Below are positions 8,960-56,095 of a stretch of 64,000 bases of DNA, piece by piece. Position 1 is the first letter of the stretch; each line of letters opens with the position of its first letter. Source of the DNA: a virus (taxonomy: Duplodnaviria; Caudoviricetes); the IMG/VR virus record IMGVR_UViG_3300025909_000005; one strand, written 5' to 3'. The translations under genes were made by a program, and so were the position numbers. The notes beneath the pieces are model-generated. The model saw nothing but the letters and a program-made list of their open reading frames with translations, ran no database searches and was not told the origin of the DNA.

Positions 8960-8971
8960 AATGGAGCAAGC

Positions 8972-14968: not shown

Positions 14969-15613
14969 ATGCCAAACGCAGTTGTAAAGAGCTACGCCAA
15001 GAAGACTGGAAAGTCGCCTGAGCACATCGAAGGATGGTGGAAGGAGGCCGAGAAGGAAGCCAAGAAGAAGTTCCCAAAGAAGGGCCCTCACTACTGGGCG
15101 TACGTGAACGGCATCGTGAAGCGCCGTGGTGGCATCAAGGAGGTCATCGGCTTCCGTGACTTCGTTGACCTGCTCTCAGAAGAGGATGGCGGTGAGAAGG
15201 AGTCAGCGCTCTCCAAGATGTCCAAGGAACACGGTCCTGTCCTGGACAGGATCGAGAAGATCAAGGACCTTGGGCGCACCTTCGACAAGGCTCTCAAGGC
15301 TGACGGAGATGAGAAGGCGAAGGGCAACTACGCGCACTGGCTGAAGACGACCGACAAGTACCGAGTCGCCTACTTCACCGACACCGATCTCGACATTGAA
15401 ACCGTCCTCGTCTTCCGCGGCCACAAGTGCTTCGGCCTGGCATCGAAGAACGACAGCGACGCAATCATCGACTTCAAGTTCGTGCCAATGGAACGCAGCG
15501 ACTGGCAGGCGATCGAGGACTTCAGCTTGGACAACCTTGACTCCTCGGCTACAATCACTGATGAGAACCTCGACCACTATGTTGAGATGATTCTCCAGGC
15601 CACTCATAAATAA
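14969..15613 (+). CDS. hypothetical late protein
   Basis: RBS TAAGGA; basic N-terminal domain. Confidence 0.75.
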   Translation: MPNAVVKSYAKKTGKSPEHIEGWWKEAEKEAKKKFPKKGPHYWAYVNGIVKRRGGIKEVIGFRDFVDLLSEEDGGEKESALSKMSKEHGPVLDRIEKIKDLGRTFDKALKADGDEKAKGNYAHWLKTTDKYRVAYFTDTDLDIETVLVFRGHKCFGLASKNDSDAIIDFKFVPMERSDWQAIEDFSLDNLDSSATITDENLDHYVEMILQATHK

Positions 15614-15650
15614 ACCAGAGCACAGGTTGAGGCCTGTGCTATAATAGAAA

Positions 15651-16000
15651 CATACTGCAGCAATGCAGTTGTATTGTCGTAATTCGGCATGACTTGAAGG
15701 ATTTGAGACGCGGGTTCGATTCCCGCCGGCTCCACCACAAATCATCTTAGCAAGAACCTTACGCCAACGTTGTGGCAAGGAAAGCAGCAAGGGTGATTTG
15801 TCATGGGGCCGACCAGGCTATCGATCAGGTTACGGAGATGATTGACGCGACACGTCGTAGTGACGTTAAAAACTCGTCTAGTAAACGCAAACGACTCCAA
15901 CTACGCGATCGCCGCTTAATAACCGGCCCGCGCGCGGCATAAGCCACCGTGTAAAAGAATGAGCTAGGACGGACCCGAGGAGCAATCTTTGGGTCCGTCT
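15651..16000 (+). ncRNA. ssrA: two-piece (circularly permuted) tmRNA: acceptor piece ~15651-15737, intervening hairpin 15738-15804, coding piece from 15805; tag (A)ANDSNYAIAA
   Basis: T-arm and CGGCTCC-A-CCA lie upstream of GGGGCCG (7-bp acceptor with G3.U70); tag ORF GCA AAC GAC...GCC GCT TAA at 15887-15919; promoter TATAAT 15640; 3' hairpin 15968-15999. Confidence 0.92.
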
Positions 16001-16068
16001 GCCTTTCCAGGTCGATGGACCTGACTTTCGCTTCCATCGTAAATACGTTCAACTTCAAAGGAGTTGAG

Positions 16069-16666: not shown

Positions 16667-16738
16667 GCCTCGGTAGCTCAGTGGTAGAGCGGATGCCTCT
16701 AAAACGTCGGGTCGTGGGTTCGATTCCCACCCGGGGCA
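16667..16738 (+). tRNA. amber suppressor tRNA (anticodon CTA), no encoded CCA
   Basis: GCCTCGG/CCGGGGC acceptor, loop CTCTAAA, canonical D and T arms. Confidence 0.85.
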
Positions 16739-16753
16739 CAGATAAGGATGACC

Positions 16754-16960
16754 ATGGGACGTAGACTTTCCCTGCATGAAATGAATGCCATCAGGCATGA
16801 GGACGATGTTCGCAACTCGCAGATCAAGCGAGGCGAATGGAAGCCGAAGACAAACAACAACTATCACTGCGTGTGTGGTTGTGGTGCGTTCGCATGCGTG
16901 TTCGTGAGCTCAATTCCGCAGACGGTCCTGCCCATGGACGAACGATCAAATGTCTCTTAG
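16754..16960 (+). CDS. small Cys-containing protein between the two suppressor tRNAs; its TAG stop lies inside the second tRNA
   Basis: RBS TAAGG; HCVCGCG motif. Confidence 0.55.
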   Translation: MGRRLSLHEMNAIRHEDDVRNSQIKRGEWKPKTNNNYHCVCGCGAFACVFVSSIPQTVLPMDERSNVS

Positions 16961-17026
16961 CTCAATGGGTAGAGCGACGGTCTCTAAAACCGTATGTTCC
17001 GGGTTCGAGCCCCGGAGGGACGGCCA
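16951..17026 (+). tRNA. amber suppressor tRNA (anticodon CTA), G73, CCA encoded
   Basis: perfect ACGGT/ACCGT anticodon stem, loop CTCTAAA, TGTCTCT/AGGGACG acceptor. Confidence 0.9.
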
Positions 17027-25540: not shown

Positions 25541-25615
25541 GGGTCCTTAGCTCAGCGGTAGAGCCCCTCCCTTACAAGGAGATTGTCGTAGGTTCGATCC
25601 CTACAGGACCCACCA
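25541..25615 (+). tRNA. tRNA-Val(TAC)
   Basis: cloverleaf, loop CTTACAA, CCA. Confidence 0.9.
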
Positions 25616-25683
25616 TATCAAAGCGCTCCATGGTAGCGTAAGTCTTTTCATGCGGCCGCCGGTCGAGCGTTTTGATATGGTAA

Positions 25684-25808
25684 GGTGTTTGTGGGCAAGA
25701 GACGAAGCCGCCTGCGATTAAGTGGGTTCCAAGTCAATGAGTAGCGTCACCCTTGGGGTCGCGAAAAGCGAGCAAACACGCTGGTTTGAATCCAGCCAAA
25801 CACCACCA
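25684..25808 (+). ncRNA. tRNA-like RNA with 8-bp acceptor, 5-bp T-stem and about 58-nt variable domain
   Basis: GGTGTTTG/CAAACACC-A-CCA; GCTGG-TTTGAAT-CCAGC. Confidence 0.6.
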
Positions 25809-25906
25809 TATCAAAGCACACTCGGTTGTGGCAAGATCAACCAACGTCTGCAGCGTATCCTGCCCAAGGGATCGTGGTTGCGCCTAGTGTGCTTTGATAT
25901 GGTAAT

Positions 25907-25995
25907 GTACGTGCTGTCCTAGGAGAGATAAGTGGATTGTAAATCCGCGGCATAAAAGTAAGTCTGAGTGGGTTCGAATCCCACCGCGTACACCA
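25907..25995 (+). tRNA. tRNA-Tyr(GTA), atypical D-arm
   Basis: loop TTGTAAA, long variable arm, CCA. Confidence 0.75.
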
Positions 25996-26004
25996 ACAGA
26001 ATTT

Positions 26005-26081
26005 GGGCTTGTAGTATTGGGGTTACGGCAGCGCCTTGCAAGTGCTGTGTCAGTGGGGTTCGATTCCCCCCAGGTCCACCA
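26005..26081 (+). tRNA. tRNA-Ala(TGC), atypical
   Basis: G3.U70, loop CTTGCAA, CCA. Confidence 0.75.
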
Positions 26082-26188
26082 AAATTCGCTGCGGCAACGG
26101 TCCTTCATGACGACTGCAGAGAAATGGAACATGAAGGCTGGTCGAACTACCTCCTTGCGAGACCTGCAAAATAAATCGTGGAGGTAAT

Positions 26189-26281
26189 GGAGATGTTAGC
26201 CGAGTTGGCCTAGCGGCAGCGGTCTTGAAAACCGAAGGTTCAGAAATGGACGTGTGAGTTCGAGTCTCACCATCTCCGCCA
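26189..26281 (+). tRNA. tRNA-Ser(TGA)
   Basis: loop CTTGAAA, long variable arm, G73, CCA. Confidence 0.9.
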
Positions 26282-26286
26282 TTGAG

Positions 26287-26492
26287 TTTGTTTTGATCTA
26301 AGTGTGGCTATTGGTTGCTGACAAAGTTCTGCGCTGTCTAGAGCAAGGGACCGAATCGGTGGCTGATATCGTGAAGTTCAAGTAGGGTTCGATTCCCAGC
26401 GGTTGAGGCCGTACAGGTGTCTTGCATGAATCGTTTGCCAGTCAGGAGCTAGACCTCCACCGATCCGTAACGGGCGCTTAGATCAAAACGAA
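26287..26492 (+). ncRNA. structured spacer RNA closed by an 18-bp stem
   Basis: TTTGTTTTGATCTAAGTG/CGCTTAGATCAAAACGAA; internal ATCGGTGG/CCACCGAT; T-loop-like GGGTTCGATTCCC. Confidence 0.55.
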
Positions 26493-26495
26493 TTT

Positions 26496-26571
26496 GGGGG
26501 ATTAGCTCAGCTGGGAGAGCGGCTGCTTTGCAAGCAGTAGGTCAACGGTTCGATCCCGTTATTCTCCACCA
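26496..26571 (+). tRNA. tRNA-Ala(TGC)
   Basis: canonical, G3.U70, CCA. Confidence 0.93.
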
Positions 26572-26655
26572 AAACAAGAAGGTTGTAGGTAGACGGTCTC
26601 TATGGCGCGTACCCGGAAGGGCAACGGCTACGAGTTGGAACCTTCACGAATAATT

Positions 26656-26732
26656 GTCGGGGTGGGAGAGTGGTCCATCCGAGGAGCTGCAACCTCCTAG
26701 ACGCATCGGTTCGATTCCGGCTCCCGACTCCA
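26656..26732 (+). tRNA. tRNA-Cys(GCA)
   Basis: loop CTGCAAC, U73, CCA. Confidence 0.85.
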
Positions 26733-26811
26733 AACATGCAACCGATCTGGCAGGCTTATCGGCAAAATATTCGCCTGTCAAACCTTTTTGTTGCACTTAC
26801 ACGAGACCTCG

Positions 26812-27207
26812 ATGATCTGCAAAGGCTGCGATAAGGAAACTTCGAATCTGAAATACTGTGACAATGCTTGTCAGCAAGTAGCTCAGACGAAGGCCAAAGT
26901 TGAAGCGTTCCTCGAAGGAAAATACGTCGGCAAATTCATGCAGTACGGGACCGGTTCCTGGCCGCGTAGAATGCTGATCGAACATTTTGGTTACAAGTGC
27001 AATGCGCCGGGTTGCACTGTCGCTGATACGTGGCTAGGAAAACCAGTCACGTTGGAAGTGAACCACATTGATGGCATTGCGACAAACAATGTCCTAACGA
27101 ATTTAGAATTCCTGTGCCCCACCTGTCACTCGCAGACGCCCAACTTTCGGGCTCTCAACAAGGTTTCAGTTAGAACGCACAGGAAGCCCCGAGCCCCTTT
27201 AGCATAG
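26812..27207 (+). CDS. HNH endonuclease inserted in the tRNA array
   Basis: LEVNHIDGIATNNVLTNLEFLCPTCHSQT; AT-richer than flanking genes; stop inside tRNA-Thr. Confidence 0.85.
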   Translation: MICKGCDKETSNLKYCDNACQQVAQTKAKVEAFLEGKYVGKFMQYGTGSWPRRMLIEHFGYKCNAPGCTVADTWLGKPVTLEVNHIDGIATNNVLTNLEFLCPTCHSQTPNFRALNKVSVRTHRKPRAPLA

Positions 27208-27267
27208 TGGCACTGCATCCGCCTTGTAAGCGGGAGATCGTCTGTTCGATTCAGACAAGGGGCACCA
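27193..27267 (+). tRNA. tRNA-Thr(TGT)
   Basis: loop CTTGTAA, CCA. Confidence 0.9.
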
Positions 27268-27275
27268 AGAATTTT

Positions 27276-27362
27276 GCGGTCGTGATGGAATTTGGTAGTC
27301 TTCACGCGTTGAGAACGCGTGGCTCTTAGAGCGTGCGGGTTCGACTCCCGCCTTCCGCACCA
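27276..27362 (+). tRNA. tRNA-Leu(GAG)
   Basis: loop TTGAGAA, long variable arm, CCA. Confidence 0.85.
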
Positions 27363-27368
27363 AGTTAT

Positions 27369-27447
27369 CTGTGTGTATTGTCAGTCTGGTTAGACGGCTG
27401 AGTTTGGAACTCGGAGGTCGCAGGTTCAAATCCTGCCACACAGACCA
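27369..27447 (+). tRNA. tRNA-Pro(TGG)
   Basis: loop TTTGGAA, C1-G72, A73. Confidence 0.85.
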
Positions 27448-27475
27448 AGTTATTGTGATACAATGAAAGTTCAAT

Positions 27476-27552
<77 letters not shown>

Positions 27553-27607
27553 TTCACCTACTCGCGTGAAGTAAACGCAGCTGACATCTTCAACAACGGA
27601 GTATGTC

Positions 27608-27889
27608 ATGCGAGTATCAGTGAAGCAAGTTGTTAACGTAGCATTCGCCCACCATGGCGCTCGTACGTTGTCTCCTGGCTGCCTTGGCGAAAATCCTTCG
27701 GGATGGACGATCACAGGTGAAGTGATGGAAGACTACGTTGAGTGGGTCAACTACTTCGAAGCAACGCATCCTACTCTCGGGTGGGTACGCGGCGACTACG
27801 AAGGAATTGTCGAAGCGAAGTCGAAGAAGGCGTACGCGCACTTCATTGAACACCACCCTCCACAAGAGTGGGACTACTGGGACATCTAA
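27608..27889 (+). CDS. hypothetical protein within the tRNA array
   Basis: RBS GGAG, 93 aa. Confidence 0.7.
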   Translation: MRVSVKQVVNVAFAHHGARTLSPGCLGENPSGWTITGEVMEDYVEWVNYFEATHPTLGWVRGDYEGIVEAKSKKAYAHFIEHHPPQEWDYWDI

Positions 27890-27958
27890 CGCCCTTCCTC
27901 TGCGTCATGAGGCTGCTTACCGCCAACGGGGAGAGCGTAAGTTAACAGTTGGATTTTA

Positions 27959-28034
27959 GCGGGCGTAATTCAGTTGGTAGAATGCTTCCTTGCCAAGGAA
28001 GTCGTCGTCGGTTCGAGTCCGATCACCCGCTCCA
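27959..28034 (+). tRNA. tRNA-Gly(GCC)
   Basis: loop TTGCCAA, U73, CCA. Confidence 0.92.
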
Positions 28035-28039
28035 AATTT

Positions 28040-28471
28040 ATGACACCAATCCAAGATTACATTCAGCTCCCACGAGAAACAAGACGTTCGCATCTTGATC
28101 TCACTGCTGAGTGCTCGAAGATCGGTGGAACGTCGAAGGAGTTCAAAGGGCTTCTTGCTTACCATCTTGGAACAACGATTCCATCTGGTCGTCAAGTTTT
28201 CCTCTGCCATGCATGCCATAATGGAGCTTGCTCCAATGTCAAGCACCTCTACTGGGGAACTCCAAAGGACAACTACATTGACTGTGTAGAAGATCGTGGA
28301 ACACTCCATGAAAGAAGTTTGAAAATTCACGGTCAAGAGTTTCTTGCAAAGCGCTACACGAGTGGAAGCTCAGCAGGCGGAAAGGGAAATTCTGGAAGAC
28401 CAAAATCCGAAGAGCACAAGCAAAAGATCGCTGAATCTCTGCGGAAGAAGAAAAATGCGGCTATGGTGTAG
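28040..28471 (+). CDS. HNH/His-Cys-type homing endonuclease with NUMOD3-like tail
   Basis: CHACHNGACSNVKHLYWGTPKDN; KSEEHKQKIAESL; stop inside the next tRNA. Confidence 0.8.
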   Translation: MTPIQDYIQLPRETRRSHLDLTAECSKIGGTSKEFKGLLAYHLGTTIPSGRQVFLCHACHNGACSNVKHLYWGTPKDNYIDCVEDRGTLHERSLKIHGQEFLAKRYTSGSSAGGKGNSGRPKSEEHKQKIAESLRKKKNAAMV

Positions 28472-28530
28472 TGGTAACCCATGACATTGCCAATGTTAAG
28501 ACGCGAGTTCGATTCTCGCTAGCCGCTCCA
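28457..28530 (+). tRNA. tRNA-Gly(GCC)
   Basis: loop TTGCCAA, U73, CCA. Confidence 0.88.
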
Positions 28531-28688
28531 AACACGTTCTGGTTTCGCTAATGAAGCGTAGTCAGATAGACAGACGATCCCGTGTAGTTCGTCTGCGACA
28601 TGCGCCAGCACGGTGGAAAAGTCCACAACTGTGGCCAGCGAGCATTGCTGATTACGAGTAGGGAGTGAAGCTCCGCGGCCCTACACAT

Positions 28689-28775
28689 GCGGGTGTGGTC
28701 CATAGGCGGGCACCAGCCTTCCAAGCTGGCAGTGCGCAAGCACGCAAGTGGGTTCGAGTCCCATCACCCGCTCCA
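28689..28775 (+). tRNA. tRNA-Gly(TCC) with long variable arm
   Basis: loop CTTCCAA, U73; V-arm GTGC-GCAA-GCAC. Confidence 0.8.
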
Positions 28776-28781
28776 AATTCT

Positions 28782-28867
28782 GGGTTCTGAGCAGCACTGG
28801 CGACTGCACCGGACTGTAAATCCGACGCCTTCGGGCATACTTGGTTCGACTCCAAGAGGACCCACCA
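28782..28867 (+). tRNA. tRNA-Tyr(GTA)
   Basis: loop CTGTAAA, long variable arm, CCA. Confidence 0.88.
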
Positions 28868-28872
28868 AATTT

Positions 28873-28947
28873 GCGGGAGTAGCTCAGTGAAAGAGCAGCC
28901 GGTGTATAACCGGACGGTCGTAGGTTCAAGTCCTACCTCCCGCACCA
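28873..28947 (+). tRNA. atypical tRNA, apparent anticodon TAT (Ile) with G33; D-loop lacks GG
   Basis: perfect acceptor and T arms; loop TGTATAA. Confidence 0.55.
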
Positions 28948-28949
28948 GG

Positions 28950-29230
28950 AATTTCAGAAGTACATGCCGCGGCGGAAGCACGACGGCTCCAAGAATTCCC
29001 ACGTGGCGGCGTGAATCCGCTAGTTTGTATAGTCTGTCACTTAACATGACTTTCGTCGCCATTACGTTACTGGTAGGCGTCAACTCAGGACCCCTGGCTT
29101 TCGACTCAAAATCGAAGGAGATACGAAGCTGCTGATGTCGGTGTTGTGAGAACCTTTTCGTTAGGGGAACTCTCTAGGTGCTTGAGCCAAATCTCTTGAA
29201 GTCGTGAGGGTGGAACCTGGCGCAGAAATT
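28950..29230 (+). ncRNA. about 280-nt structured spacer RNA, unknown
   Basis: non-coding; AATTTC/GAAATT ends, CATGACTT/AAGTCGTG, TGGCT/AGCCA stems. Confidence 0.4.
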
Positions 29231-29232
29231 TC

Positions 29233-29349
29233 GGGGACCTAGCTCAGTAGGTAGAGCACTGGATGAAAACGTTGCTGCATAGGTCGACCTTCAATGCACA
29301 ACGAAGTACGTACCGGCTGTCCGAGGTTCGAGCCCTCGGGTCCCCACCA
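29233..29349 (+). tRNA. tRNA-Phe-derived RNA with about 41-nt hairpin inserted in the anticodon loop
   Basis: perfect acceptor, D and T arms; GAGCA-CTGGA-TGAAAA, then insert CGTTG..CAACG, then ACCGG-CTGTC. Confidence 0.65.
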
Positions 29350-29354
29350 GAATT

Positions 29355-29493
29355 TGACAACCGATAGATTAGGATTATCATCCAAGCAGGTATACGTAGG
29401 TTCGAATCCTACACGGTGCGCAAGTGCCGTTCGACAAGTGGTAAAGTCACCCGCCTCGCCGCAAGGCATTTTCCTGTCGCTCCTTTGTTGTCA
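29355..29493 (+). ncRNA. circularly permuted tRNA-like module
   Basis: order: 3' anticodon strand, T-arm, 3' acceptor strand, GCAA loop, 5' acceptor strand, D-arm, 5' anticodon strand; outer TGACAAC/GTTGTCA stem. Confidence 0.65.
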
Positions 29494-29502
29494 CTTAGAT
29501 TT

Positions 29503-29588
29503 GCGGTTGTGATGGAATCTGGTAGTCTTCCTGTGCTCAGAACGCAGGGCCTTCGGGCGTGTGGGTTCGAATCCCACCTTCCGCACCA
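29503..29588 (+). tRNA. tRNA-Leu(CAG)
   Basis: loop CTCAGAA, long variable arm, CCA. Confidence 0.87.
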
Positions 29589-29593
29589 AACAA

Positions 29594-30001
29594 GTGTCCT
29601 ACTCTAGGATTAGTCATAGGAACGACCGGGAAATCATAACCGGATGTAAGCAAACCTATGGAGTGAGAGAGGAATGAGATTTTCCTCACGATTTAGCTCA
29701 CGTACCATGTGTACGAGGAGTATACGGCATCGTTCTGCGATGCTAGCCTATTTGATTGATGCCCTTAGCGGGGACAGTGTGGTGGCACGGATCGTTTTGC
29801 GGTAGTCACCTATGCATGAAGGTTCTTCCCAAGAGTAAGCAAACGTGAGGGGAGACGTCAATCACCAGTTGTCGTAACTGCAGCCTAAGGGTATGCAGTA
29901 CCGGCGCTTCGCCTGCCAATGGCTCCAGGTAGGGACGCACAGTGTGCCGAATCCGTTCAAGCCGGTTTGAGAATAAGGCTGCGTGCCGAATATAGGACCA
30001 C
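29594..30001 (+). ncRNA. about 410-nt structured RNA between tRNA-Leu and tRNA-Ser, unknown family
   Basis: closing GTGTCCTA/TAGGACCAC; several long-range pairings; no credible ORF. Confidence 0.5.
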
Positions 30002-30005
30002 AATT

Positions 30006-30097
30006 GGAGACATGGCAGAGAGGCCGATTGCGCCGGTTTGCTAAACCGGAGATCCACGAAAGTGGGTCCGTGGGTTCGAATCCCACTGTCTCCTCCA
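30006..30097 (+). tRNA. tRNA-Ser(GCT)
   Basis: loop TTGCTAA, long variable arm. Confidence 0.92.
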
Positions 30098-30104
30098 GAA
30101 TTTT

Positions 30105-30189
30105 GCACTCGTGGCGTAATTGGTAGCCGCGCTAGCTTGAGGTGCTAGAGGGGAAACCCGTGCTGGTTCGAGTCCAGTCGAGTGCACCA
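30105..30189 (+). tRNA. tRNA-Leu(GAG)
   Basis: loop TTGAGGT, long variable arm. Confidence 0.9.
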
Positions 30190-30317
30190 GAATGAACTCC
30201 CCTTCGAGGGAATCGCCGAACGTGGTAGGCGTAGAGCGCATGGCTAAGATCGATGATGCAGTGCGAGGCTAAGTAAAGACAACTCTTTCGGGTTATCAGA
30301 CCAAACCCGACCAACAT

Positions 30318-30409
30318 GGAGAAATGGCAGAGAGGCCGATTGCACAACCTTGGAAAGGTTGAGACCGGGTCAAACCGGTCCGTGGGTTCGAATCCCACTT
30401 TCTCCTCCA
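30318..30409 (+). tRNA. tRNA-Ser(GGA)
   Basis: loop TTGGAAA, long variable arm. Confidence 0.92.
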
Positions 30410-30525
30410 TGAAAGAAGACTGGCGTTCCATGCCCGGCCAAAAACCGTAATGCACATGAAAGTGTGGGGCTGTCAGGGAGAAATATGGTGGAAGTAAATC
30501 TCCTTCATCTTCATGAACAAGATTT

Positions 30526-30600
30526 CAGGGTGGGAGGCGTGTGGCAGCCGATGACGTCCGGAGCGTTGTAGTCAGGGTTCGACTCCCTGCACCCTGACCA
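30526..30600 (+). tRNA. tRNA-Pro(CGG), atypical loop (C33)
   Basis: C1-G72, A73, loop TCCGGAG. Confidence 0.65.
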
Positions 30601-30721
30601 GATTTACCTCGCGAGAGGGCTGCCCCTTGTCTACGGACCTGGGGACCAGCAAAGGAACAGCACATCGTGGTTTGCGGCTGTTCCCTTCACCAGCACAGGC
30701 TGGAGGAAGTCCACGAGATCA

Positions 30722-30797
30722 CGGTGCATGGAGTGAGAGGTTAACCGGCTGTGTAACATACAGTCTGATGTAGGTTCGAGTCCTACTGCACCGACCA
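30722..30797 (+). tRNA. atypical or pseudo tRNA (apparent loop GTAACAT)
   Basis: perfect acceptor and T-arm, weak D-arm. Confidence 0.5.
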
Positions 30798-30802
30798 ATT
30801 TC

Positions 30803-30885
30803 GTTTCGATAGCTCAAGGGACAGAGCACGTGGCCCAAGAGGTAGGTACGATGGAAAGCGGTTCGACTCCGCAACGAAACATCCA
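30803..30885 (+). pseudogene. degenerate tRNA-like gene
   Basis: D and T arms recognisable; anticodon arm irregular. Confidence 0.4.
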
Positions 30886-31051
30886 ATTTGAAGCGTTAGC
30901 ATGAGAGAATCCTGCATGCCTAATTGTCGTTTGTCCGAGGTCCGACTGGTTGTCGATGAACGATTACAGCGACGTGGATCGGCCGATCCTAGCTGTTTGT
31001 GACTACCTGGTTGTGGGGAGTAACGGTCCCACCGCTTCAATTCAATTTCAT

Positions 31052-31126
31052 GGGGGCAGCAATGGGTTGCGGTTCTCGCTGGCAGCGAGGATGTCTAGAC
31101 GAGTTCGATTCTCGCGGTCTCCACCA
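31052..31126 (+). tRNA. tRNA-Ala(GGC), atypical
   Basis: G3.U70, loop CTGGCAG, CCA. Confidence 0.7.
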
Positions 31127-31475
31127 GATTTGATCCAAGGCATTAGCCGCCCCTAGGCAAGTCCCAACGAAAGTTGAGGTGGAACGCAGTGTTGAAGCGT
31201 TGAGGATCGCCCGAACAAGTCACGGCTTGGAACTCCGCAGTGCGCCATGGAACTCTGCGTCGATAAGAGAAGGCAGTCGTGCACCAATTTGAGAGCTAGA
31301 TGCGGATACGGGACACCCACGTCGGAAAACCCTTCCACCGCCATGACAGAACGTAGACGAGCTAGTGGATGCAGCATGAAACCTCGTAGGCGTGGTTGCC
31401 GTAGAGGAAGTTCCCTGCTCTAGGCCAACCTACGCAGGCAATCACTGCTCTCAATGAACATGGTATAATGAACTC

Positions 31476-31691
31476 ATGATCCTCTGCAGCTGCGCGAACA
31501 TTCCTGAGAGCGTTGCTCGAGAGAAGCTTAAGACGCAAACGCTGTCTGAGTTCATGATCGAAACGAATTGCGCGATGCAGTGCGGCTCCTGCTGGCAGGA
31601 CCTCCTTGACATCGCAGATGAATACGACAACCGATCGACCAGGGTTATCTCCCATTCGACAACCCCTGGTCAACCTCCTTCGTTGTCATGA
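31476..31691 (+). CDS. bfd: bacterioferritin-associated ferredoxin-like [2Fe-2S] protein
   Basis: MILCSC...CAMQCGSC; own TGGTATAAT promoter. Confidence 0.7.
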   Translation: MILCSCANIPESVAREKLKTQTLSEFMIETNCAMQCGSCWQDLLDIADEYDNRSTRVISHSTTPGQPPSLS

Positions 31692-31695
31692 TTGC

Positions 31696-31772
31696 GCCCT
31701 TGTACGCTAATCGGCAGTGCGGCTCCCCTTAAAATGGAGTGGTTGTGGGCTCGAATCCCACCTTGGGCACCA
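31696..31772 (+). tRNA. tRNA-Leu(TAA), short variable loop
   Basis: loop CTTAAAA, A73, CCA. Confidence 0.78.
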
Positions 31773-31778
31773 ACCCTG

Positions 31779-31926
31779 TTGGCAAATGTTAGAGCAACCG
31801 CTTGATCTTGGATTATCTACTTTTATTGGTTAAAAACCCGGATACGTTCGACTCGTGTCATCCCTTTATGCCGGTGCACGGAAGGGAATTCTCCAAATCG
31901 CCTTTTGTTGCCCTAACATTTGCCAA
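31779..31926 (+). ncRNA. structured spacer RNA with perfect 14-bp closing stem and a T-arm module
   Basis: TTGGCAAATGTTAG/CTAACATTTGCCAA; GATACG-TTCGACT-CGTGTC. Confidence 0.5.
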
Positions 31927-31958
31927 TGATAAATAGTCCTCCAACAGGAGGACGATGA

Positions 31959-32303
31959 ATGTTGCTGAACGAACTGCTCGAGCTAAACGAAATGGCCGAG
32001 CTTGAAGAACTCTTCGAGAAGGAATGGTCTGACGCGGTGACGCACCGCAAGCCAGGCACCTTCGCCCCAAAGGGAACGCACTCCAAGTCCGCTGAAGAGA
32101 TCTTCAAGATCTACAAGCGACACAGGGTCTCTCCACATGGAGACGGCTCTGCAATTCAGATGCTGCAGTTCTTCATCAACCGTGCCGGAAAACGTCTGAA
32201 GCCGGAACGGAAACAGGAACTTGAGAAGGCCATTCGAATGCTTCAGGCGGACAACGCCAAGATGAAGGCAGAGAAGAAGGCCAAGGAAAAGAAGGACGAC
32301 TGA
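31959..32303 (+). CDS. DUF3175-like late protein
   Basis: KEWS...MLQFFINRAGKRL; late promoter. Confidence 0.65.
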   Translation: MLLNELLELNEMAELEELFEKEWSDAVTHRKPGTFAPKGTHSKSAEEIFKIYKRHRVSPHGDGSAIQMLQFFINRAGKRLKPERKQELEKAIRMLQADNAKMKAEKKAKEKKDD

Positions 32304-32307
32304 TTGT

Positions 32308-32381
32308 AGCGGGCGAGTGTGATGGTAGCACGTTGGGCTCATAACCCAGAGGGCCGGTTCGATTCCGAGGCGCCGCAACCA
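32308..32381 (+). tRNA. initiator-like tRNA-Met(CAT), irregular stems
   Basis: three G-C pairs closing loop CTCATAA, 1:72 mismatch. Confidence 0.65.
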
Positions 32382-32649
32382 AATCCGTAAGGATCGTGGA
32401 GATTCGCACATCTCCTAGTATAAAGTGGGCGGCTCGCGACCGCAATGACTCGGCTACCTGAGACTTCCTAACGGTGCTCATACGCGGCTAACAGAGTCCA
32501 CGACGGGTCCTAGCCCGTCACGAACAAATGGCATGCAGACGTGTATGCAAAGTCCCACGCCGGAACCAAGGACCTTCACAGGCACCAAAGACGGTGGGAA
32601 AAGGTGGGCGACGAACAGGGCAGAGCACCCTTCCTGTTTCACGAATTTA

Positions 32650-32728
32650 TGCGGAGGGCCGGCCAGCAGTCGGACGAGGTCTCATAAGCCACGGTAAAGA
32701 TGGGTGCGACTCCTAATCTCCGCTACCA
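32650..32728 (+). tRNA. tRNA with CAT anticodon (Met/fMet/Ile2), atypical
   Basis: loop CTCATAA, T-loop TGCGACT, U1.U72. Confidence 0.6.
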
Positions 32729-32745
32729 TAACTAGAAGGAAGCCC

Positions 32746-33075
32746 ATGAAGAAGATCCTCCTCGCGCTCAGTGCGCTCGTCTCCATTTCCGCCCTGGCTG
32801 CTCCTCAAGCTCCGGCCCCACAAGGAAGCTTTGAAACCCGCCCCGGCTGTATCTGGTCTCATGACGTTGCGCGATGCGCCGTGGACAATCACTCACGGGT
32901 AAACTTGAGCTGCACCGTGCATGTCTTCGGTCGCACCGAAAGGGGCTTCAAGATCGGCAACACACGCACCGTATCGGTTCCAGCCTTCAAGTACAACGAC
33001 GACGCTCGCCTCTATGCCGCTGAAGGCGACAAGCTCGTCAAGGTCGATGCAGAAGCAACCTGCTCGCCTGAATGA
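32746..33075 (+). CDS. small secreted protein
   Basis: signal peptide MKKILLALSALVSISALA, four Cys. Confidence 0.75.
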   Translation: MKKILLALSALVSISALAAPQAPAPQGSFETRPGCIWSHDVARCAVDNHSRVNLSCTVHVFGRTERGFKIGNTRTVSVPAFKYNDDARLYAAEGDKLVKVDAEATCSPE

Positions 33076-33084
33076 AAACGCGCG

Positions 33085-33157
33085 GTCTCGGTATCTTAAC
33101 TGGTAAAGACGCCTCCCTTATAAGGGGTAGATCTAGGTTCGAATCCTAGTCGAGACA
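33085..33157 (+). tRNA. tRNA-Ile(TAT), no encoded CCA
   Basis: loop CTTATAA, A73, canonical T-arm. Confidence 0.75.
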
Positions 33158-33168
33158 CACAGAACAAC

Positions 33169-33245
33169 GCGGGTGTGACGCAATTGGTAGACGTACTGGA
33201 TTTAGAATCCAGGTCCTGAGGGTTCGAGTCCCTCCACCCGTACCA
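33169..33245 (+). tRNA. tRNA-Leu(TAG), short variable loop
   Basis: loop TTTAGAA, CCA. Confidence 0.85.
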
Positions 33246-33250
33246 AACAT

Positions 33251-33340
33251 GGATTGTGCGGAGCATGGCGCTCAACTGCCCTCGAAAAGCAGCGTGTCGG
33301 TGATGAGCCGGCAGGGGTTCGATTCCTCCACTCTCCGCCA
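33251..33340 (+). tRNA. tRNA-Ser(CGA)
   Basis: loop CTCGAAA, long variable arm, G73. Confidence 0.8.
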
Positions 33341-33485
33341 AGATATGGAAGACGCGGCGTCGAAACCGCGTGGTAGTTCGGCCGAACGGTCCGGTAGCGG
33401 GTGGCCACCTGCGAAAGACTTAGAACCTGATTTGGCTCGCGGGGTTCGACTCCTCGCAGGTAAAACCAACTTCCATTTGAACTCT

Positions 33486-33563
33486 GCCCTTGTACGCTAA
33501 TTGGAAGACGCGCGCGAGCTCAAACCTCGTGGGTTGTCGGTTCGAATCCGACCTTGGGTACCA
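33486..33563 (+). tRNA. tRNA-Leu(CAA), short variable loop
   Basis: loop CTCAAAC, CCA. Confidence 0.8.
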
Positions 33564-34387: not shown

Positions 34388-34702
34388 ATGATGGACAACA
34401 AGAATCCACCGGACGTACCTCAGCAGCCTGAAACTGAGGAAGAAAAGCTGAAGCGTCTCCAGCAAGAAGCTGAGATTCGCAAGGTTGGCCCGAACGCACC
34501 TGACGTTCACACGGGCGATGACACCGTTGGGGTTGGCATGCCAGCTGCACAGCCAGTTTCGCAAGGCAACTCCCTTCCACAGTCAGCCATTCCTGTGAAG
34601 AGCAAGTTCGAAGGAGCCGACTTCTACAACCCACAGGATGCAGAGAACTCTGCCATCCAGAAGGAGCGCGCTAATAGCGGCGCCCAGAAGACGGAGGAGT
34701 AA
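34388..34702 (+). CDS. hydrophilic hypothetical protein
   Basis: RBS TAAGGAG. Confidence 0.7.
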   Translation: MMDNKNPPDVPQQPETEEEKLKRLQQEAEIRKVGPNAPDVHTGDDTVGVGMPAAQPVSQGNSLPQSAIPVKSKFEGADFYNPQDAENSAIQKERANSGAQKTEE

Positions 34703-35148
34703 TGGACGCAATTCAACTCCTGATCGATGACCACAACGCGGTCAAAGAGAAGTTTGCGCAGTTCGAACACATCGACAACTTGAACAACGCCGACGAGAAG
34801 ATCACGCTGTCACACGAGATCTGTGCTGCTCTAGCCACTCACATGGCGATCGAGGAAGAGCTCTTCTACCCGGCTGCTCGTGCCCTCTTCGACGACAAGG
34901 ACGATGAACTCGTCGATGACGCCGTGAAGGAACACAAGCACGCTCGCTCGTTGATGAAGGACATTCAGACTCTTGAGGTCGGTGTTCGCCTCAATCTCGA
35001 GATGAAGGCGCTCAAGCTCATGATCGAAGACCACGTCAAGGACGAGGAAGGCACCATGTTCCCTAAGCTTCGTCAGCTTGGCATGGAGACGACCCAGCTC
35101 GGTGAAAAGATGGCTCAACGAAAGAAGGAACTTTCACCGAACGTGTGA
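34702..35148 (+). CDS. hemerythrin/HHE cation-binding domain protein
   Basis: LLIDDH, HMAIEEELFYP, EH, HVKDEEGTMFP. Confidence 0.88.
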   Translation: MDAIQLLIDDHNAVKEKFAQFEHIDNLNNADEKITLSHEICAALATHMAIEEELFYPAARALFDDKDDELVDDAVKEHKHARSLMKDIQTLEVGVRLNLEMKALKLMIEDHVKDEEGTMFPKLRQLGMETTQLGEKMAQRKKELSPNV

Positions 35149-35161
35149 TATAATCACCACA

Positions 35162-35564
35162 TGCTCAATCACCCGGCCTAACGCTGGCTTCACGGCTAGA
35201 ACAAGTTCGGGGCTGCACAGGACAGGGCTTGTCGCTCTGTGGAAGAAGCGGTCGTGCGTTGGAAACTGCCTTTAAACTCGAAAGGGTCGGAAGCTCCAGC
35301 AACGTTCAATCGTGGTCGATCTCTCGCGGTAACAGTGAGAGCTCTCTATTGCCACTTTAGCTTTGCTTGACCACAACGACTCCGCAGCAAGTCAAACAGA
35401 CCTCGTCGACGCTGTCCGCTGAGGGGTCGGGTTGATGCACCTATGATCCGGATTGGAACCCGGGGAGGACGTCGGTCACACGGCGTAGTCAAATGTTAGG
35501 AACCATCGGCGGTTGTGAATGCCTGATGGAGAAAGTAGAACCCCGGCTATGAGGTGATTGAGCA
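35162..35564 (+). ncRNA. rnpB: RNase P RNA, bacterial type A-like
   Basis: P1 TGCTCAATCACC/GGTGATTGAGCA; P2 CCTAAC/GTTAGG; P4 AG(T)TCGGGG/CCCCGGCT; P5 GCTGC/GCAGC followed by AAG; P6 GGACA/TGTCC; CR-IV AGTCAAATG; CR-V AGAACCCCGGCTA; own TATAAT promoter. Confidence 0.88.
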
Positions 35565-35706
35565 CCTTTTACAAACACATCTCCATAAAAGAAGCAGATG
35601 AAGCACTTGTCCCTGCTAAATACTAGCAAGGATGAAGTTGAGATTCTTCCCGAATGCCGGTTCCCTCACGGACCCGAGAAGCATTCCAACCTTTTAAGGA
35701 GATGAC

Positions 35707-36267
35707 ATGACTGACATGACCAACAAGGATGCAGCACAGAACTCGGCACCAGATGCCAAGGTTCTTCCTGCTTCCCAGCAGCCAGCAGCAACTGGCACGT
35801 CGACGAACTCGCTGCCTGTGACCCCACAGACCGCTGACGCCGCACACGTTGCCAACGCAAACCTGCCTCGCGCCGCAGTTCCAACCACAAACGCCGTTCC
35901 AACGGCCAAGATGACGGACTCGACGAAGGAAGAGCAGTCGAACCTGAAGTCCATCGTTGACAAGACGAAGGACATGTCGGAGTACGACAAGCAGGAAGCC
36001 TACGCCAAGATGGCTGAGGACAAGCTCGGTGAAGACAGCTACCGCAAGGCAGCTCGTCTCGAACGCGAGCGTGAAGCTGCTCTCGCCGAAGGCGACCCAA
36101 CCCGTGACCCTGTTGCAAAGCAGAAGGCCATGGACATGACGGTCGTCCAGCCAGGCGCAGTTGCTGACGCACAGAAGATCAAGCAAGTCGGCAAGGAAGC
36201 ACTCGCTGATCAAGCGAAGGCACGTGGCACTGACGGCGACGTCAACCCACAGTTCGTTCAGAAGTAA
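35707..36267 (+). CDS. hydrophilic late protein
   Basis: late promoter 35617, RBS TAAGGAG. Confidence 0.75.
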   Translation: MTDMTNKDAAQNSAPDAKVLPASQQPAATGTSTNSLPVTPQTADAAHVANANLPRAAVPTTNAVPTAKMTDSTKEEQSNLKSIVDKTKDMSEYDKQEAYAKMAEDKLGEDSYRKAARLEREREAALAEGDPTRDPVAKQKAMDMTVVQPGAVADAQKIKQVGKEALADQAKARGTDGDVNPQFVQK

Positions 36268-54794: not shown

Positions 54795-54992
54795 ATGAAT
54801 CACGCAGAGCTGCAAGCCATCGTCAACGAGAACATGGACAACGCGTTGGACAACGCGCCCGAGTTCATTAAGACGGCGTCAAACCTCGCCATCGCCGAGG
54901 ACATGCTGGAGTACTGTGCAGACTTCGAGTTCCTCGACCTATCGCCTGACGACCTGGTCCCCTTCATCGAAACATGGTGGAACAAGGTATGA
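54795..54992 (+). CDS. acidic hypothetical protein
   Basis: near-leaderless after TATAAT. Confidence 0.6.
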   Translation: MNHAELQAIVNENMDNALDNAPEFIKTASNLAIAEDMLEYCADFEFLDLSPDDLVPFIETWWNKV

Positions 54993-56095
54993 AGATCTAC
55001 ATCGTCGGTGGCGCAGTTCGCGACGCCGCAATGGGCCTGAAAGCTAAGGACGAGGACTACGTCGTCGTTGGCGCGACGCCTGAAGAGATGCTGGCCAAGG
55101 GCTTCAAGCAGGTCGGCGCAGACTTCCCAGTTTTCCTGCACCCGCAGAGCGGTGATGAATGGGCTCTGGCACGGACGGAACGCAAGTCAGGTTCCGGCTA
55201 CCTGGGCTTCGACGTCGAAACTGACGGCGTGACGCTGGAAGAAGACCTGTCGCGTCGCGACCTGACGATGAACGCAATGGCCATCGCCATTGGCTCCACA
55301 GAGATCATCGACCCATTCGGCGGTCTGAACGACATCAAGAACAGGGTGCTGCGCCACATCGGCCCGGCCTTTGCTGAGGACCCGCTGCGCGTCATCCGCC
55401 TGGCTCGCTTCTTTGCTCGCTACGAAGACTTCGTCGTCGCTGAGGAAACTGCCGAGCTGTGCAAGCAGGTGGTCAACAGCGGTGAGCTGGATGCCCTGCC
55501 GTTCGAGCGCTTCTGGGCCGAACTGGAGAAGGTCTTCACTGAGAAGCGGCCTGATCGCTTCTTCCAGGCGCTGCACGAAATGGGTGCGCTGAAGAAGGTG
55601 CGGTTCTTCCAACGCGTCTTTGGCGACACGCCGATCCAAACGCTGATGGGCGTTGCTGAAAAGCTGAAGCTGTCTCAAGAACAGCGCGTTCGTCAGTTCG
55701 TCGCCCTCGTCGGCACGCAGAAGGAACTGAAGAACGTTGCGGCGTCGACCGAGATCATGGACGTGCACCGCAACCTGCGCTTCGCGCGTTCGATCAAGAA
55801 GGTCGTCAACCGAGAAAGCGTGCATGCCTTCATCAAGCAGGCAGGCGGCTTTCAACGCGGTGAACACCACCTGACTCAGCAGTCGCTGGATGCACTGGAC
55901 GCGATCTCGTTGTCTCATCAACTGGGTCTGGATGACTTCTCTTCGCTGGCAGAGGGCTGGTTCATGATGGCCTGGATGAACGCCACGCGTGTAGGACAAG
56001 CCGACTTCCCTGAGCTCTCGGGCAAGGAGCTGGGCGAGGCCATCAAGAACAAGCGCATGGACCTGATCATGAGCTCGATCAACATGTCAACCTGA
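54989..56095 (+). CDS. cca: tRNA nucleotidyltransferase (class II CCA-adding enzyme, short form without HD domain)
   Basis: IVGGAVRD, DEDYVV, ALARTERK, EEDLSRRDLTMNAMA, DPFGG, EDPLRVIRLARF. Confidence 0.93.
   Translation: MKIYIVGGAVRDAAMGLKAKDEDYVVVGATPEEMLAKGFKQVGADFPVFLHPQSGDEWALARTERKSGSGYLGFDVETDGVTLEEDLSRRDLTMNAMAIAIGSTEIIDPFGGLNDIKNRVLRHIGPAFAEDPLRVIRLARFFARYEDFVVAEETAELCKQVVNSGELDALPFERFWAELEKVFTEKRPDRFFQALHEMGALKKVRFFQRVFGDTPIQTLMGVAEKLKLSQEQRVRQFVALVGTQKELKNVAASTEIMDVHRNLRFARSIKKVVNRESVHAFIKQAGGFQRGEHHLTQQSLDALDAISLSHQLGLDDFSSLAEGWFMMAWMNATRVGQADFPELSGKELGEAIKNKRMDLIMSSINMST

What the first reader, a model, noticed from the sequence alone, without database searches (positions are those of the whole stretch)
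35144..35570. Phage-encoded RNase P RNA (rnpB-like)
A 403-nt RNA with its own TGTGATATAAT promoter maps helix by helix onto the type-A bacterial RNase P fold. P1 is 12 bp. P2 is CCTAAC/GTTAGG. The P4 pseudoknot has the bulged U. P5 is followed by AAG. P6 is GGACA/TGTCC. A GGTAACA loop, P18, CR-IV AGTCAAATG, P19 and CR-V AGAACCCCGGCTA are also present. Notable deviations: J3/4 reads AGAACAAG rather than GAGGAAAG, and the L15 motif that pairs with the tRNA RCCA end reads GGGGAG where E. coli has GGGUAG. No rnpA gene is seen in this window, so the host protein may be borrowed. RNase P RNAs are not a standard phage feature as far as I know, and gene callers would leave this region blank.
Basis: partly seen in the sequence, partly recalled or inferred. 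Interest (0 to 1): 0.93.

Follow-up and report, generated by a model that had tools for sequence, protein, structure and literature searches.

The report
Phage-encoded RNase P ribozyme gene
A giant soil phage carries and transcribes its own divergent copy of the RNase P ribozyme (the RNA enzyme that trims new tRNAs): the catalytic half is intact, the substrate-reading half is replaced by a phage-specific module, and I found no paper describing such viral RNase P RNAs.

Summary
The gap at 35149-35706 holds a real RNA gene of about 400 nt (35161-35566, + strand) behind an extended -10 promoter. Rfam finds no RNase P on the window's own copy. A natural variant that differs mainly by lacking 110 nt (L007) matches RF00010 end to end at 34.3 bits, E 2e-9, below the 100-bit gathering score. 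All catalytic-domain helices (P1-P5, P15-P19, P4 with its bulged U, P6) are fully paired. They show compensatory changes among strain variants and across 17 phage relatives; in P4, 99% of cells pair and 7 of 8 pairs covary. A covariance model of the type-A specificity domain finds nothing here, so that half is replaced by a small phage-type module plus a 110-nt structured insert that is present in some strains only. RNA-library contigs from four studies hold exactly this stretch, joined head to tail. No RnpA gene was found in the window or in 20 related phage records. Earlier follow-ups in this scan reported the same kind of phage RNA on other DNA. I confirmed one, an unannotated copy in Stenotrophomonas phage DLP6. 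I found no paper describing it.

The parts
35146..35154 (+). Extended -10 promoter TGATATAAT (TGnTATAAT); overlaps the hemerythrin stop codon
   Evidence: 8 matches in the window, all + strand, 0.18 expected; one lies directly before the tmRNA. Predicted start 35161 equals the 5' side of the joints in runs X10 and X12.
35161..35566 (+). RNase P RNA-like gene (about 400 nt in the long form)
   Evidence: RNA-library contigs span 35161-35556, 35161-35558, 35165-35557 and 35155-35566. RF00010 hit on variant L007. Alignments A2 and A5.
35162..35173 (+). P1 5' strand; pairs with 35553-35564
   Evidence: 11 of 11 Watson-Crick pairs plus U35162-A35564. All 11 pairs covary in the family.
35176..35182 (+). 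P2 5' strand; pairs with 35495-35501
   Evidence: 6 of 7 paired. In the family 96% of cells pair and 6 of 6 pairs covary.
35184..35199 (+). P3 hairpin (6 bp, loop UCAC)
   Evidence: In the family 91% of cells pair and 5 of 6 pairs covary.
35200..35212 (+). J3/4 and P4 5' strand (CR-I): AACAAGUUCGGGG, with U35207 bulged
   Evidence: P4 is A-U, G-C, U.G, [U], C-G, then 4 G-C with 35541-35548. The 3 bp / bulged U / 5 bp geometry is kept in all 17 relatives.
35213..35216 (+). P5 5' strand CUGC; pairs with GCAG at 35384-35387
   Evidence: In the family 96% of cells pair and 4 of 4 pairs covary.
35220..35224 (+). P6 pseudoknot 5' strand GGACA; pairs with UGUCC at 35413-35417 in the P17 loop
   Evidence: 5 of 5 pairs in all variants of this lineage. 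A-U replaces the bacterial G-C. Poorly supported in the family alignment.
35225..35383 (+). Region in place of the specificity domain: P7 (35225-27 / 35381-83), stem GUCG/CGAC (35231-34 / 35377-80), stem GAAGC/GCUUU (35245-49 / 35360-64)
   Evidence: All pairs standard. No match to the type-A S-domain model R1. The same small module is seen in relative G006/L157.
35250..35359 (+). 110-nt insert found in some strains only; replaced by UUCAU in L007, L008, L013 and one X13 RNA contig
   Evidence: joint 35249 to 35360 with TTCAT between. No other copy in the window or in any fetched locus.
35260..35298 (+). Hairpin A of the insert, with GAAA tetraloop at 35280-83
   Evidence: The X18 variant has U-A to C-G, U-A to A-U and A.G to G-C changes; L001 has U.G to C-G.
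35321..35341 (+). Hairpin B of the insert (7 bp, loop GGUAACA)
   Evidence: There is no variation, so it is untested.
35388..35436 (+). J5/15 CAAG; P15 (35391-94 / 35433-36); P16 (35399-404 / 35423-28); P17 with the P6 loop; L15 GGGU (35429-32)
   Evidence: RF00010 alignment. P15 U-A to A-U between variants. Top hit of my 3'-half model in the whole window (14 bits, E 0.11). In the family, 98% of P15 cells pair.
35447..35464 (+). Extra hairpin between P15 and P18 (not in E. coli M1 RNA)
   Evidence: 5 of 5 paired. Shared with relative G006/L157.
35469..35486 (+). P18 hairpin (6 bp, loop GUCACA, not GNRA)
   Evidence: It sits directly 5' of CR-IV, as P18 does in bacteria.
35487..35501 (+). CR-IV AGUCAAAU and P2 3' strand
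   Evidence: AG and AUG are conserved; the A at E. coli position 330 is U here.
35503..35529 (+). P19 hairpin with a bulged U
   Evidence: Compensatory exchanges at four pairs of the stem between the window and L007, with the bulged U kept (read by hand).
35537..35548 (+). CR-V AGAA and P4 3' strand CCCCGGCU
35567..35570 (+). U run after P1; possible 3' end or termination signal
   Evidence: Sequence. The X18 RNA contig ends at 35566. This is inference.

Best explanation
This is the gene for a phage-encoded RNase P RNA. It is transcribed from its own extended -10 promoter as an RNA of about 400 nt. The RNA folds into the complete catalytic domain of bacterial type-A RNase P: P1-P5, the P4 pseudoknot with its bulged U, P15 with the GGU that pairs with the tRNA 3' CCA, P16-P19 and P6.

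The specificity domain (P7-P14) is replaced by a small two-stem module typical of a family of phage RNase P RNAs. In this strain the module carries an extra 110-nt structured insert.

Inferred function: in infected cells it assembles with the host's RnpA protein and cuts the 5' leaders off the phage's many pre-tRNAs, and probably off its two-piece tmRNA. This would add processing capacity or make the phage independent of host rnpB.

What is shown: the sequence, the fold supported by covariation, family membership, and RNA molecules that hold exactly this stretch. What is inferred: catalysis, the protein partner and the substrates.
For: 1. RF00010 aligns variant L007 over model positions 1-367 at 34.3 bits, E 2.2e-9. 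L007 is nearly identical to the window outside the 110-nt indel and the P19 hairpin, with about ten further point differences.
2. Every proposed helix is fully or nearly fully paired in all five variants. Changes are compensatory: P15 U-A to A-U; exchanges at four pairs of P19; hairpin A U-A to C-G and U-A to A-U.
3. The P15-L15 motif of this RNA retrieves 19 IMG/VR contigs, many of 300-476 kb. Six of them, and phage DLP6, are independent RF00010 full-model hits of 43-83 bits.
4. On the 17-member alignment, 99% of P4 cells pair and 7 of 8 pairs change on both sides. P2, P3, P5 and P15 pair in 91-98% of cells. The covariation score is 0.372, against 0.115 in shuffles (0 of 500 reach it) and 0.06-0.10 for slid partners.
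5. P6 A-U and P15 A-U replace the bacterial G-C pairs in a compensated way.
6. RNA-library contigs of four studies hold 35161-35558 (plus or minus a few bases), joined head to tail. That form is absent from the DNA contigs L001, L011 and L013, so it comes from RNA.
7. 21 of 26 tRNA genes in the window encode CCA, which fits the retained L15 GGU.
8. Relatives sit on the same strand inside tRNA arrays.
9. No RnpA was found in the window or in 20 related phage records, while 10 of 10 bacterial controls were positive.
Against: 1. Rfam gives no RNase P match on the window's own copy or on variant L013, even at E<=10 or E<=1. The one hit is far below the 100-bit gathering score.
2. Sequence-only and partial-model tests on the window are weak: nhmmer E 0.8 and 2.1, model R2 E 0.11.
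3. Positions conserved in 95% or more of bacteria differ here. J3/4 is GAACAAG where bacteria have GAGGAAAG; the G that is invariant in all 17 aligned family sequences, the short variants of this lineage among them, is C in this strain. CR-IV A330 is U. CR-V ACA is GUA. The P18 loop is not GNRA.
4. There is no recognisable specificity domain, so tRNA elbow recognition as in bacteria is unlikely.
5. No activity, protein-binding or substrate data exist.
Confidence: 0.7

Rival explanations
1. It is an RNase P RNA look-alike that does not cut tRNA. Instead it acts as a decoy or regulator, for example by soaking up host RnpA or pre-tRNAs to shut down host tRNA maturation, or to blunt a tRNA-directed defence.
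For: The protein-binding catalytic-domain scaffold is kept while the specificity domain is lost. Near-universal J3/4, CR-IV and CR-V bases differ in this strain. No phage RnpA was found.
Against: The exact P4 geometry with the bulged U, the L15 GGU and J5/15 CAAG are conserved and covary across the family. A mere protein sponge would not need all of these. Relatives are embedded between tRNA genes on the same strand.
Confidence: 0.12
2. It is an active RNase P-type ribozyme whose replaced specificity module retargets it to substrates other than ordinary pre-tRNAs, such as the phage's two-piece tmRNA precursor, insert-bearing tRNAs or particular mRNAs.
For: The specificity domain is replaced by a phage-specific module that varies between strains by 110 nt and between relatives. 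The window has a permuted tmRNA.
Against: No candidate substrate pairing was found. The retained CCA-binding GGU and the encoded CCA ends fit ordinary pre-tRNAs.
Confidence: 0.1
3. It is a decaying, captured copy of a host rnpB gene with no present function.
For: It scores far below the Rfam gathering score and lacks the specificity domain.
Against: Compensatory changes keep helices intact within the lineage and across 17 relatives. It has its own promoter of the phage's recurrent type. RNA-derived contigs of the full RNA occur in four studies.
Confidence: 0.03
4. It is a structured RNA unrelated to RNase P, and the resemblance is chance.
For: There is no Rfam hit on the window copy. The minimum-free-energy z-score is only -0.25.
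Against: RF00010 E-values run from 2e-9 to 1e-27 on the variant and on relatives. The two best bacterial-profile hits in 128 kb searched fall here, in order and on the right strand. The P4 and P6 pseudoknots, which the model does not score, are complementary.
Confidence: 0.03

Closest known systems
Bacterial RNase P RNA, class A (E. coli M1 RNA / rnpB; Rfam RF00010)
   Same: P1-P5, the P4 pseudoknot with 3 bp, a bulged U and 5 bp, J5/15 CAAG, P15-P17 with L15 GGU, P6, P18, CR-IV, P19 and CR-V, all in the same order. It is recognised by RF00010 on a natural variant and on relatives.
   Different: It is encoded by a phage. It has no recognisable P7-P14 specificity domain. It has an extra hairpin between P15 and P18 and no GNRA loop on P18. 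Several near-universal bases are changed. Its score is 34 bits against a 100-bit gathering threshold. No rnpA gene accompanies it.
Type T RNase P RNA of Thermoproteaceae (Pyrobaculum), which lacks most of the specificity domain (PMC3579882)
   Same: A natural RNase P RNA that keeps the catalytic domain while the specificity domain is almost wholly lost.
   Different: Type T is archaeal and cellular, works with archaeal proteins and has a different core lineage. Here a small replacement module, and in this strain a 110-nt insert, occupy the site.
Engineered C-domain-only type-A RNase P RNAs (PMC5839562)
   Same: They show that a type-A catalytic domain without the specificity domain still cleaves substrates, with reduced efficiency. 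This makes activity plausible here.
   Different: They are laboratory constructs, not natural genes.
Unannotated RNase P-like RNAs of large phages (for example Stenotrophomonas phage DLP6, KU682439.2:105774-106022, and IMG/VR huge-phage contigs); noted earlier in this scan, and I found them in no paper
   Same: They share the CAAACAGACC...GGUCGGGUUG P15-L15 module, mostly the AAGUUC form of P4, and the small module in place of the specificity domain. They have no RnpA and are linked to phage tRNA genes.
   Different: This copy is about 400 nt against 207-280 nt for most, because of the 110-nt insert, the extra hairpin and P19. It has its own promoter 1.6 kb beyond the tRNA array instead of sitting between tRNAs. 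Its J3/4 carries a C where all others have G.
[quoted passage not shown]
   Same: Head-to-tail joined RNase P RNA molecules occur in cellular RNA.
   Different: Here they are seen only as circular contigs in metatranscriptomes. The joints vary by a few bases between runs and have not been validated by RNase R treatment or divergent PCR.

Membership tests
Bacterial RNase P RNA class A (RF00010) | Covariance-model score at or above the curated gathering score (100 bits) | tested here: not met
   No hit on the window copy or on L013. L007 scores 34.3 bits, E 2.2e-9, over model positions 1-367.
Bacterial RNase P RNA class A (RF00010) | P4 pseudoknot between CR-I and CR-V with a bulged U | tested here: met
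   8 of 8 pairs plus bulged U35207. In the family 99% of cells pair and 7 of 8 pairs covary.
Bacterial RNase P RNA class A (RF00010) | P1-P2-P3 closing stack and P5 | tested here: met
   P1 11 of 11, P2 6 of 7, P3 6 of 6, P5 4 of 4. All covary in the family.
Bacterial RNase P RNA class A (RF00010) | P15-P16-P17 arm whose internal loop carries the GGU that pairs with the tRNA 3' CCA | tested here: met
   GGGU at 35429-32 aligns to the consensus GGGU. P15 shows a compensatory change. This arm is the top R2 hit in the window.
Bacterial RNase P RNA class A (RF00010) | P6 pseudoknot (J5/7 with the P17 loop) | tested here: inconclusive
   5 of 5 pairs in this lineage, with a compensated G-C to A-U change relative to bacteria. 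Only 35-53% of cells pair in the MAFFT family alignment.
Bacterial RNase P RNA class A (RF00010) | Specificity domain P7-P14 with CR-II and CR-III | tested here: not met
   Model R1 scores 121-144 bits on 15 bacterial copies. In 35100-35650 with filters off the best score is 5.2 bits, on the wrong strand.
Bacterial RNase P RNA class A (RF00010) | P18 capped by a GNRA loop | tested here: not met
   The hairpin at 35469-86 is in the right place, but its loop is GUCACA.
Bacterial RNase P RNA class A (RF00010) | Cleaves pre-tRNA 5' leaders; works with the RnpA protein | not testable with these tools
   No RnpA in the window (a weak test) or in 20 related phage records. Activity was not assayed.
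Phage RNase P-like RNAs without a specificity domain (undescribed; DLP6 type) | Shared P15-L15 sequence module, P4 with bulged U, small module in place of P7-P14 | tested here: met
   The motif retrieves 19 IMG/VR contigs. Alignment A5 and its pair counts. Same module architecture as G006/L157.
Phage RNase P-like RNAs without a specificity domain (undescribed; DLP6 type) | Lies in or beside a phage tRNA gene array, on the same strand | tested here: met
   The window's array at 25541-33563 ends 1.6 kb upstream on the same strand. 16 of 19 relatives have tRNA genes in their flanks on the same strand.

The most novel reading that the evidence does not exclude
Large phages carry their own active RNase P ribozymes that run on the host's RnpA protein. 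The substrate-reading domain has been swapped for a small exchangeable module; in this strain it carries a 110-nt insert that coexisting strains lack. The module may tune which precursors are cut. The RNA is circularised in vivo, perhaps by a phage RNA ligase, which would protect it from exonucleases.
Probability: 0.25. Interest if true: 0.9.

Novelty: new variant of a known kind. Interest (0 to 1): 0.8.

Why it matters
RNase P RNA is regarded as a universal cellular ribozyme, and I found no report of a virus encoding one. A phage copy that keeps only the catalytic half would be a natural minimal bacterial-type RNase P. Three things make it experimentally tractable:
- A cultured relative exists (phage DLP6).
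- Natural long and short versions exist that differ by one 110-nt module.
- Transcripts are detectable in soil metatranscriptomes.

It would show that phages can take over tRNA 5' maturation as well as tRNA supply, CCA addition and ribosome rescue. It would also allow tests of how much of the ribozyme is needed when the host protein is borrowed. For annotation, Rfam's gathering score misses the whole family.

Tried and rejected
**Searches that gave nothing or only weak signal**
- Rfam on the window copy: gathering threshold; E<=10 on 34900-35800 and on 35158-35568; the 3' half alone. No RNase P hit. The same for variant L013. I read this as loss at the filter stage, since L007 scores 34 bits. 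I could not run a no-filter RF00010 search.
- MFE folding: z-score -0.25, uninformative.
- Bacterial nhmmer profile: the two best hits fall in the RNA, but at E 0.8 and 2.1.
- My 3'-half model R2: the best hit in the window falls here, but at E 0.11.
- blastn against cultured phages, and exact or degenerate motifs in IMG/VR, for close relatives: none.

**Results set aside as not independent or not informative**
- The phage-family HMM hit on the window (E 9e-15) is not counted. The members were selected with a 20-nt motif taken from this RNA.
- Hemerythrin synteny: relatives at about 50% identity have no gap after the gene, and the 349,660-bp relative gave no DNA.
- The 13 IMG/VR hits to the canonical CR-I pattern are ordinary bacterial-type rnpB with full S-domains, most within a few hundred bases of an end of the fetched stretch (likely host flank), not phage genes.
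- The lack of RNA-contig cover over the flanking genes is not counted as evidence.
- The RnpA search in the window by phmmer and by Pfam on 10 small ORFs is a weak test. The first attempt used a wrongly extracted query.

**Readings rejected**
- P4 with the first U bulged (2+6 bp): family comparison favours 3 bp, bulge, 5 bp.

Full report
**Setting**

The window is part of a very large phage genome. It holds 28 tRNA genes, a two-piece (permuted) tmRNA, a CCA-adding enzyme, NAD-salvage enzymes and a UvrD-type helicase whose best matches are phage helicases at 44% identity or less. The finding lies in a 558-nt stretch with no convincing ORF, between a hemerythrin-domain gene (34702-35148) and an unknown 186-aa gene (35707-36267).

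**The observation**

- TGTGATATAAT lies at 35144-54.
- P1 is 11 Watson-Crick pairs, plus U35162-A35564.
- P2 (6 of 7 pairs), P3 (6 of 6), P5 (4 of 4) and P6 GGACA/UGUCC (5 of 5) are present, as are the P18 and P19 hairpins.
- P4 forms between AGU[U]CGGGG and CCCCGGCU.
- AGUCAAAUG and AGAACCCCGGCUA are present.

The promoter is credible. TGNTATAAT occurs eight times in the window, always on the + strand, against 0.18 expected, and one copy sits directly before the tmRNA.

**The Rfam test**

- On the window copy RF00010 does not appear at all. This held at the gathering threshold, at E<=10 on 901 nt and on 411 nt, and on the 3' half alone.
- Public assemblies hold close relatives of this locus. 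L001 and L011 are nearly identical to the window.
- L007, L008 and L013 carry the same RNA, but with window 35250-35359 replaced by UUCAU.
- On L007, RF00010 aligns the full model (1-367) at 34.3 bits, E 2.2e-9, skipping the specificity domain by a local end.
- L013, which differs from L007 mainly in P19, is again missed.

Detection therefore sits at the edge of the filters, and the score is far below the 100-bit gathering threshold. Outside the indel and P19 the window and L007 differ at only about ten positions, so the call carries over to the window copy.

**Corrections from the RF00010 alignment**

P15 is GUCA/UGAU (35391-94 / 35433-36) and L15 is GGGU (35429-32), the canonical CCA-binding GGU. 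The variants decide between the two readings.

**Variation within the lineage**

| Element | Change | Source |
|---|---|---|
| P19 | compensatory exchanges at four pairs between window and L007, bulged U kept | |
| Stem GAAGC/GCUUY | G.U to G-C | |
| P17 | gains an A-U pair | |
| Hairpin A of the insert (X18 metatranscriptome variant) | U-A to C-G, U-A to A-U, A.G to G-C | |
| Hairpin A (L001) | U.G to C-G | |
| P2 | one change breaks a pair | |
| P1 | one deletion bulges a base | |

**A wider family**

I checked it myself. RF00010 hits KU682439.2:105774-106022 at 54.7 bits, E 3e-17. The stretch is unannotated and lies directly before a tRNA-Arg gene.

DLP6 and this RNA share CAAACAGACC...GGUCGGGUUG and the AAGUUC form of P4. 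That motif retrieves 19 IMG/VR contigs, many of 300-476 kb. Six of them are RF00010 full-model hits of 43-83 bits and 207-417 nt. Sixteen of the 19 have tRNA genes on the same strand in the flanks, and several of the RNAs sit between two tRNAs.

I aligned 17 members and counted pairs on my structure.
- P4: 99% of cells pair, and 7 of 8 pairs change on both sides.
- P2: 96% of cells pair. P3: 91%. P5: 96%. P15: 98%.
- The covariation score is 0.372, against 0.115 for shuffles (0 of 500 reach it) and 0.06-0.10 for slid partners.
- Every member keeps P4 as 3 bp, a bulged U and 5 bp. This fixes the register here as A-U, G-C, U.G, [U35207], C-G and four G-C pairs.
- P6 is not supported in this alignment.

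**The specificity domain**

I built a covariance model from 45 type-A S-domains. It scores 121-144 bits on 15 bacterial-type copies. Thirteen of these are rnpB copies in IMG/VR records, most near an end of the fetched stretch and so probably host flank. With filters off it finds nothing in 35100-35650; the best score is 5.2 bits, on the wrong strand.

The site holds P7, a GUCG/CGAC stem and a GAAGC/GCUUY hairpin. The nearest relative, G006/L157, has the same small architecture. In this strain the hairpin loop is expanded by 110 nt into two further hairpins, one with a GAAA tetraloop and one with the GGUAACA loop. The insert has no other copy in the window or in any fetched locus. It stays in the RNA.

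**Evidence of RNA**

Eight metatranscriptome runs hold about the RNA's share of the query words. I laid contigs of four runs from four studies. They span 35161-35556, 35161-35558, 35165-35557 and 35155-35566.

In all four, the 3' end is joined back to the 5' end; three of them form closed circular contigs with a 30-nt overlap. The DNA contigs L001, L011 and L013 run on into both neighbouring genes, so the joined form comes from RNA. The 5' side of the joint in two runs, 35161, is exactly seven bases after the -10 hexamer. One run holds both the long and the short form.

Whether the joint reflects circular RNA in cells is open. Circular RNase P RNA has been reported in E. coli, yeast and human cells (bioRxiv 10.1101/2025.06.30.662392). 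Against this, the joint moves by a few bases between runs, which would also fit template switching at the P1 helix during cDNA synthesis.

**Mechanism**

The parts of type-A RNase P RNA that form the active site and bind the acceptor end are present: P4, J5/15 and L15. So is the region that RnpA binds: P2, P3, CR-IV and CR-V. (Established knowledge of the family.)
- 21 of 26 tRNA genes in the window encode CCA.
- No RnpA was found in the window (a weak test).
- No RnpA was found in any of 20 family phage records, seven of them at least 90% complete, while 10 of 10 bacterial controls were positive.
- C-domain-only constructs retain activity (PMC5839562), and archaeal type T RNAs naturally lack the S-domain (PMC3579882).

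I infer a phage ribozyme that borrows the host protein to process phage pre-tRNAs and probably the tmRNA.

**Caveats**

This strain differs from near-universal bases.
- J3/4 is GAACAAG. The C stands where all 17 aligned family sequences, the short variants of this lineage among them, have G.
- CR-IV A330 is U, and CR-V ACA is GUA.
- The P18 loop is not GNRA.

Direct sequence-only and partial-model tests on the window are weak. Activity is untested.

**Novelty**

Seven full-text searches found no description of a phage-encoded RNase P RNA. Earlier follow-ups in this scan reported the same kind of RNA on other phage DNA.

This copy adds several things:
- a long form with a strain-variable insert;
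- its own promoter;
- metatranscriptome evidence;
- the head-to-tail joints.

I class it as a new variant of a known kind.

Noticed in passing
window 35155-35566 (joints 35556>35161, 35558>35161, 35557>35165, 35566>35155): RNA-library contigs of four studies join the RNA's 3' end back to its 5' end, three of them as closed circles of 396-412 nt. This could be a circular RNA, as reported for M1 RNA, or a cDNA template-switch artefact at P1. The joint position differs by a few bases between runs.
   Followed up: partly
window 35250-35359: A 110-nt structured insert is present in the window, L001, L011 and X18, and is replaced by UUCAU in L007, L008, L013 and one X13 contig. Long and short RNAs coexist in one metatranscriptome.
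   Followed up: yes
L150:1501-1749 (KU682439.2:105774-106022): The cultured Stenotrophomonas phage DLP6 has an unannotated 249-nt RF00010 match (54.7 bits) directly before its tRNA-Arg(CCG) gene.
   Followed up: yes
L173:1501-1917: A 417-nt phage RNase P-like RNA (RF00010, 53 bits) carries a large insert in the specificity region. The insert contains a tRNA T-arm-like AAGGUUCGAAUCCUU.
   Followed up: no
window 15573-16003: A permuted (two-piece) tmRNA of the betaproteobacterial type, tag ANDSNYAIAA, lies directly behind TGCTATAAT (15637-45). This hints at a betaproteobacterial host.
   Followed up: no
window 16667-16739 and 16951-17026: Two tRNA genes with CUA (amber-reading) anticodons; ARAGORN calls them tRNA-Pyl.
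   Followed up: no
window 3936, 12655, 15637, 31461, 35146, 41532, 48169, 48869: The extended -10 motif TGNTATAAT occurs eight times, all on the + strand (0.18 expected). It is a likely phage promoter class read by host sigma-70.
   Followed up: partly
window 5460-6584, 8936-10279, 10339-11811, 54974-56095: An NMNAT-Nudix fusion, an adenylosuccinate synthetase-like gene, a NAMPT-type phosphoribosyltransferase and a CCA-adding enzyme: a metabolic and tRNA-maturation toolkit.
   Followed up: no
L136-L148 (IMG/VR): All 13 IMG/VR matches to the canonical CR-I pattern are full bacterial-type rnpB genes (S-domain 123-144 bits), most within a few hundred bases of an end of the fetched stretch. They are probably host flanks of predicted proviruses rather than viral genes.
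   Followed up: partly
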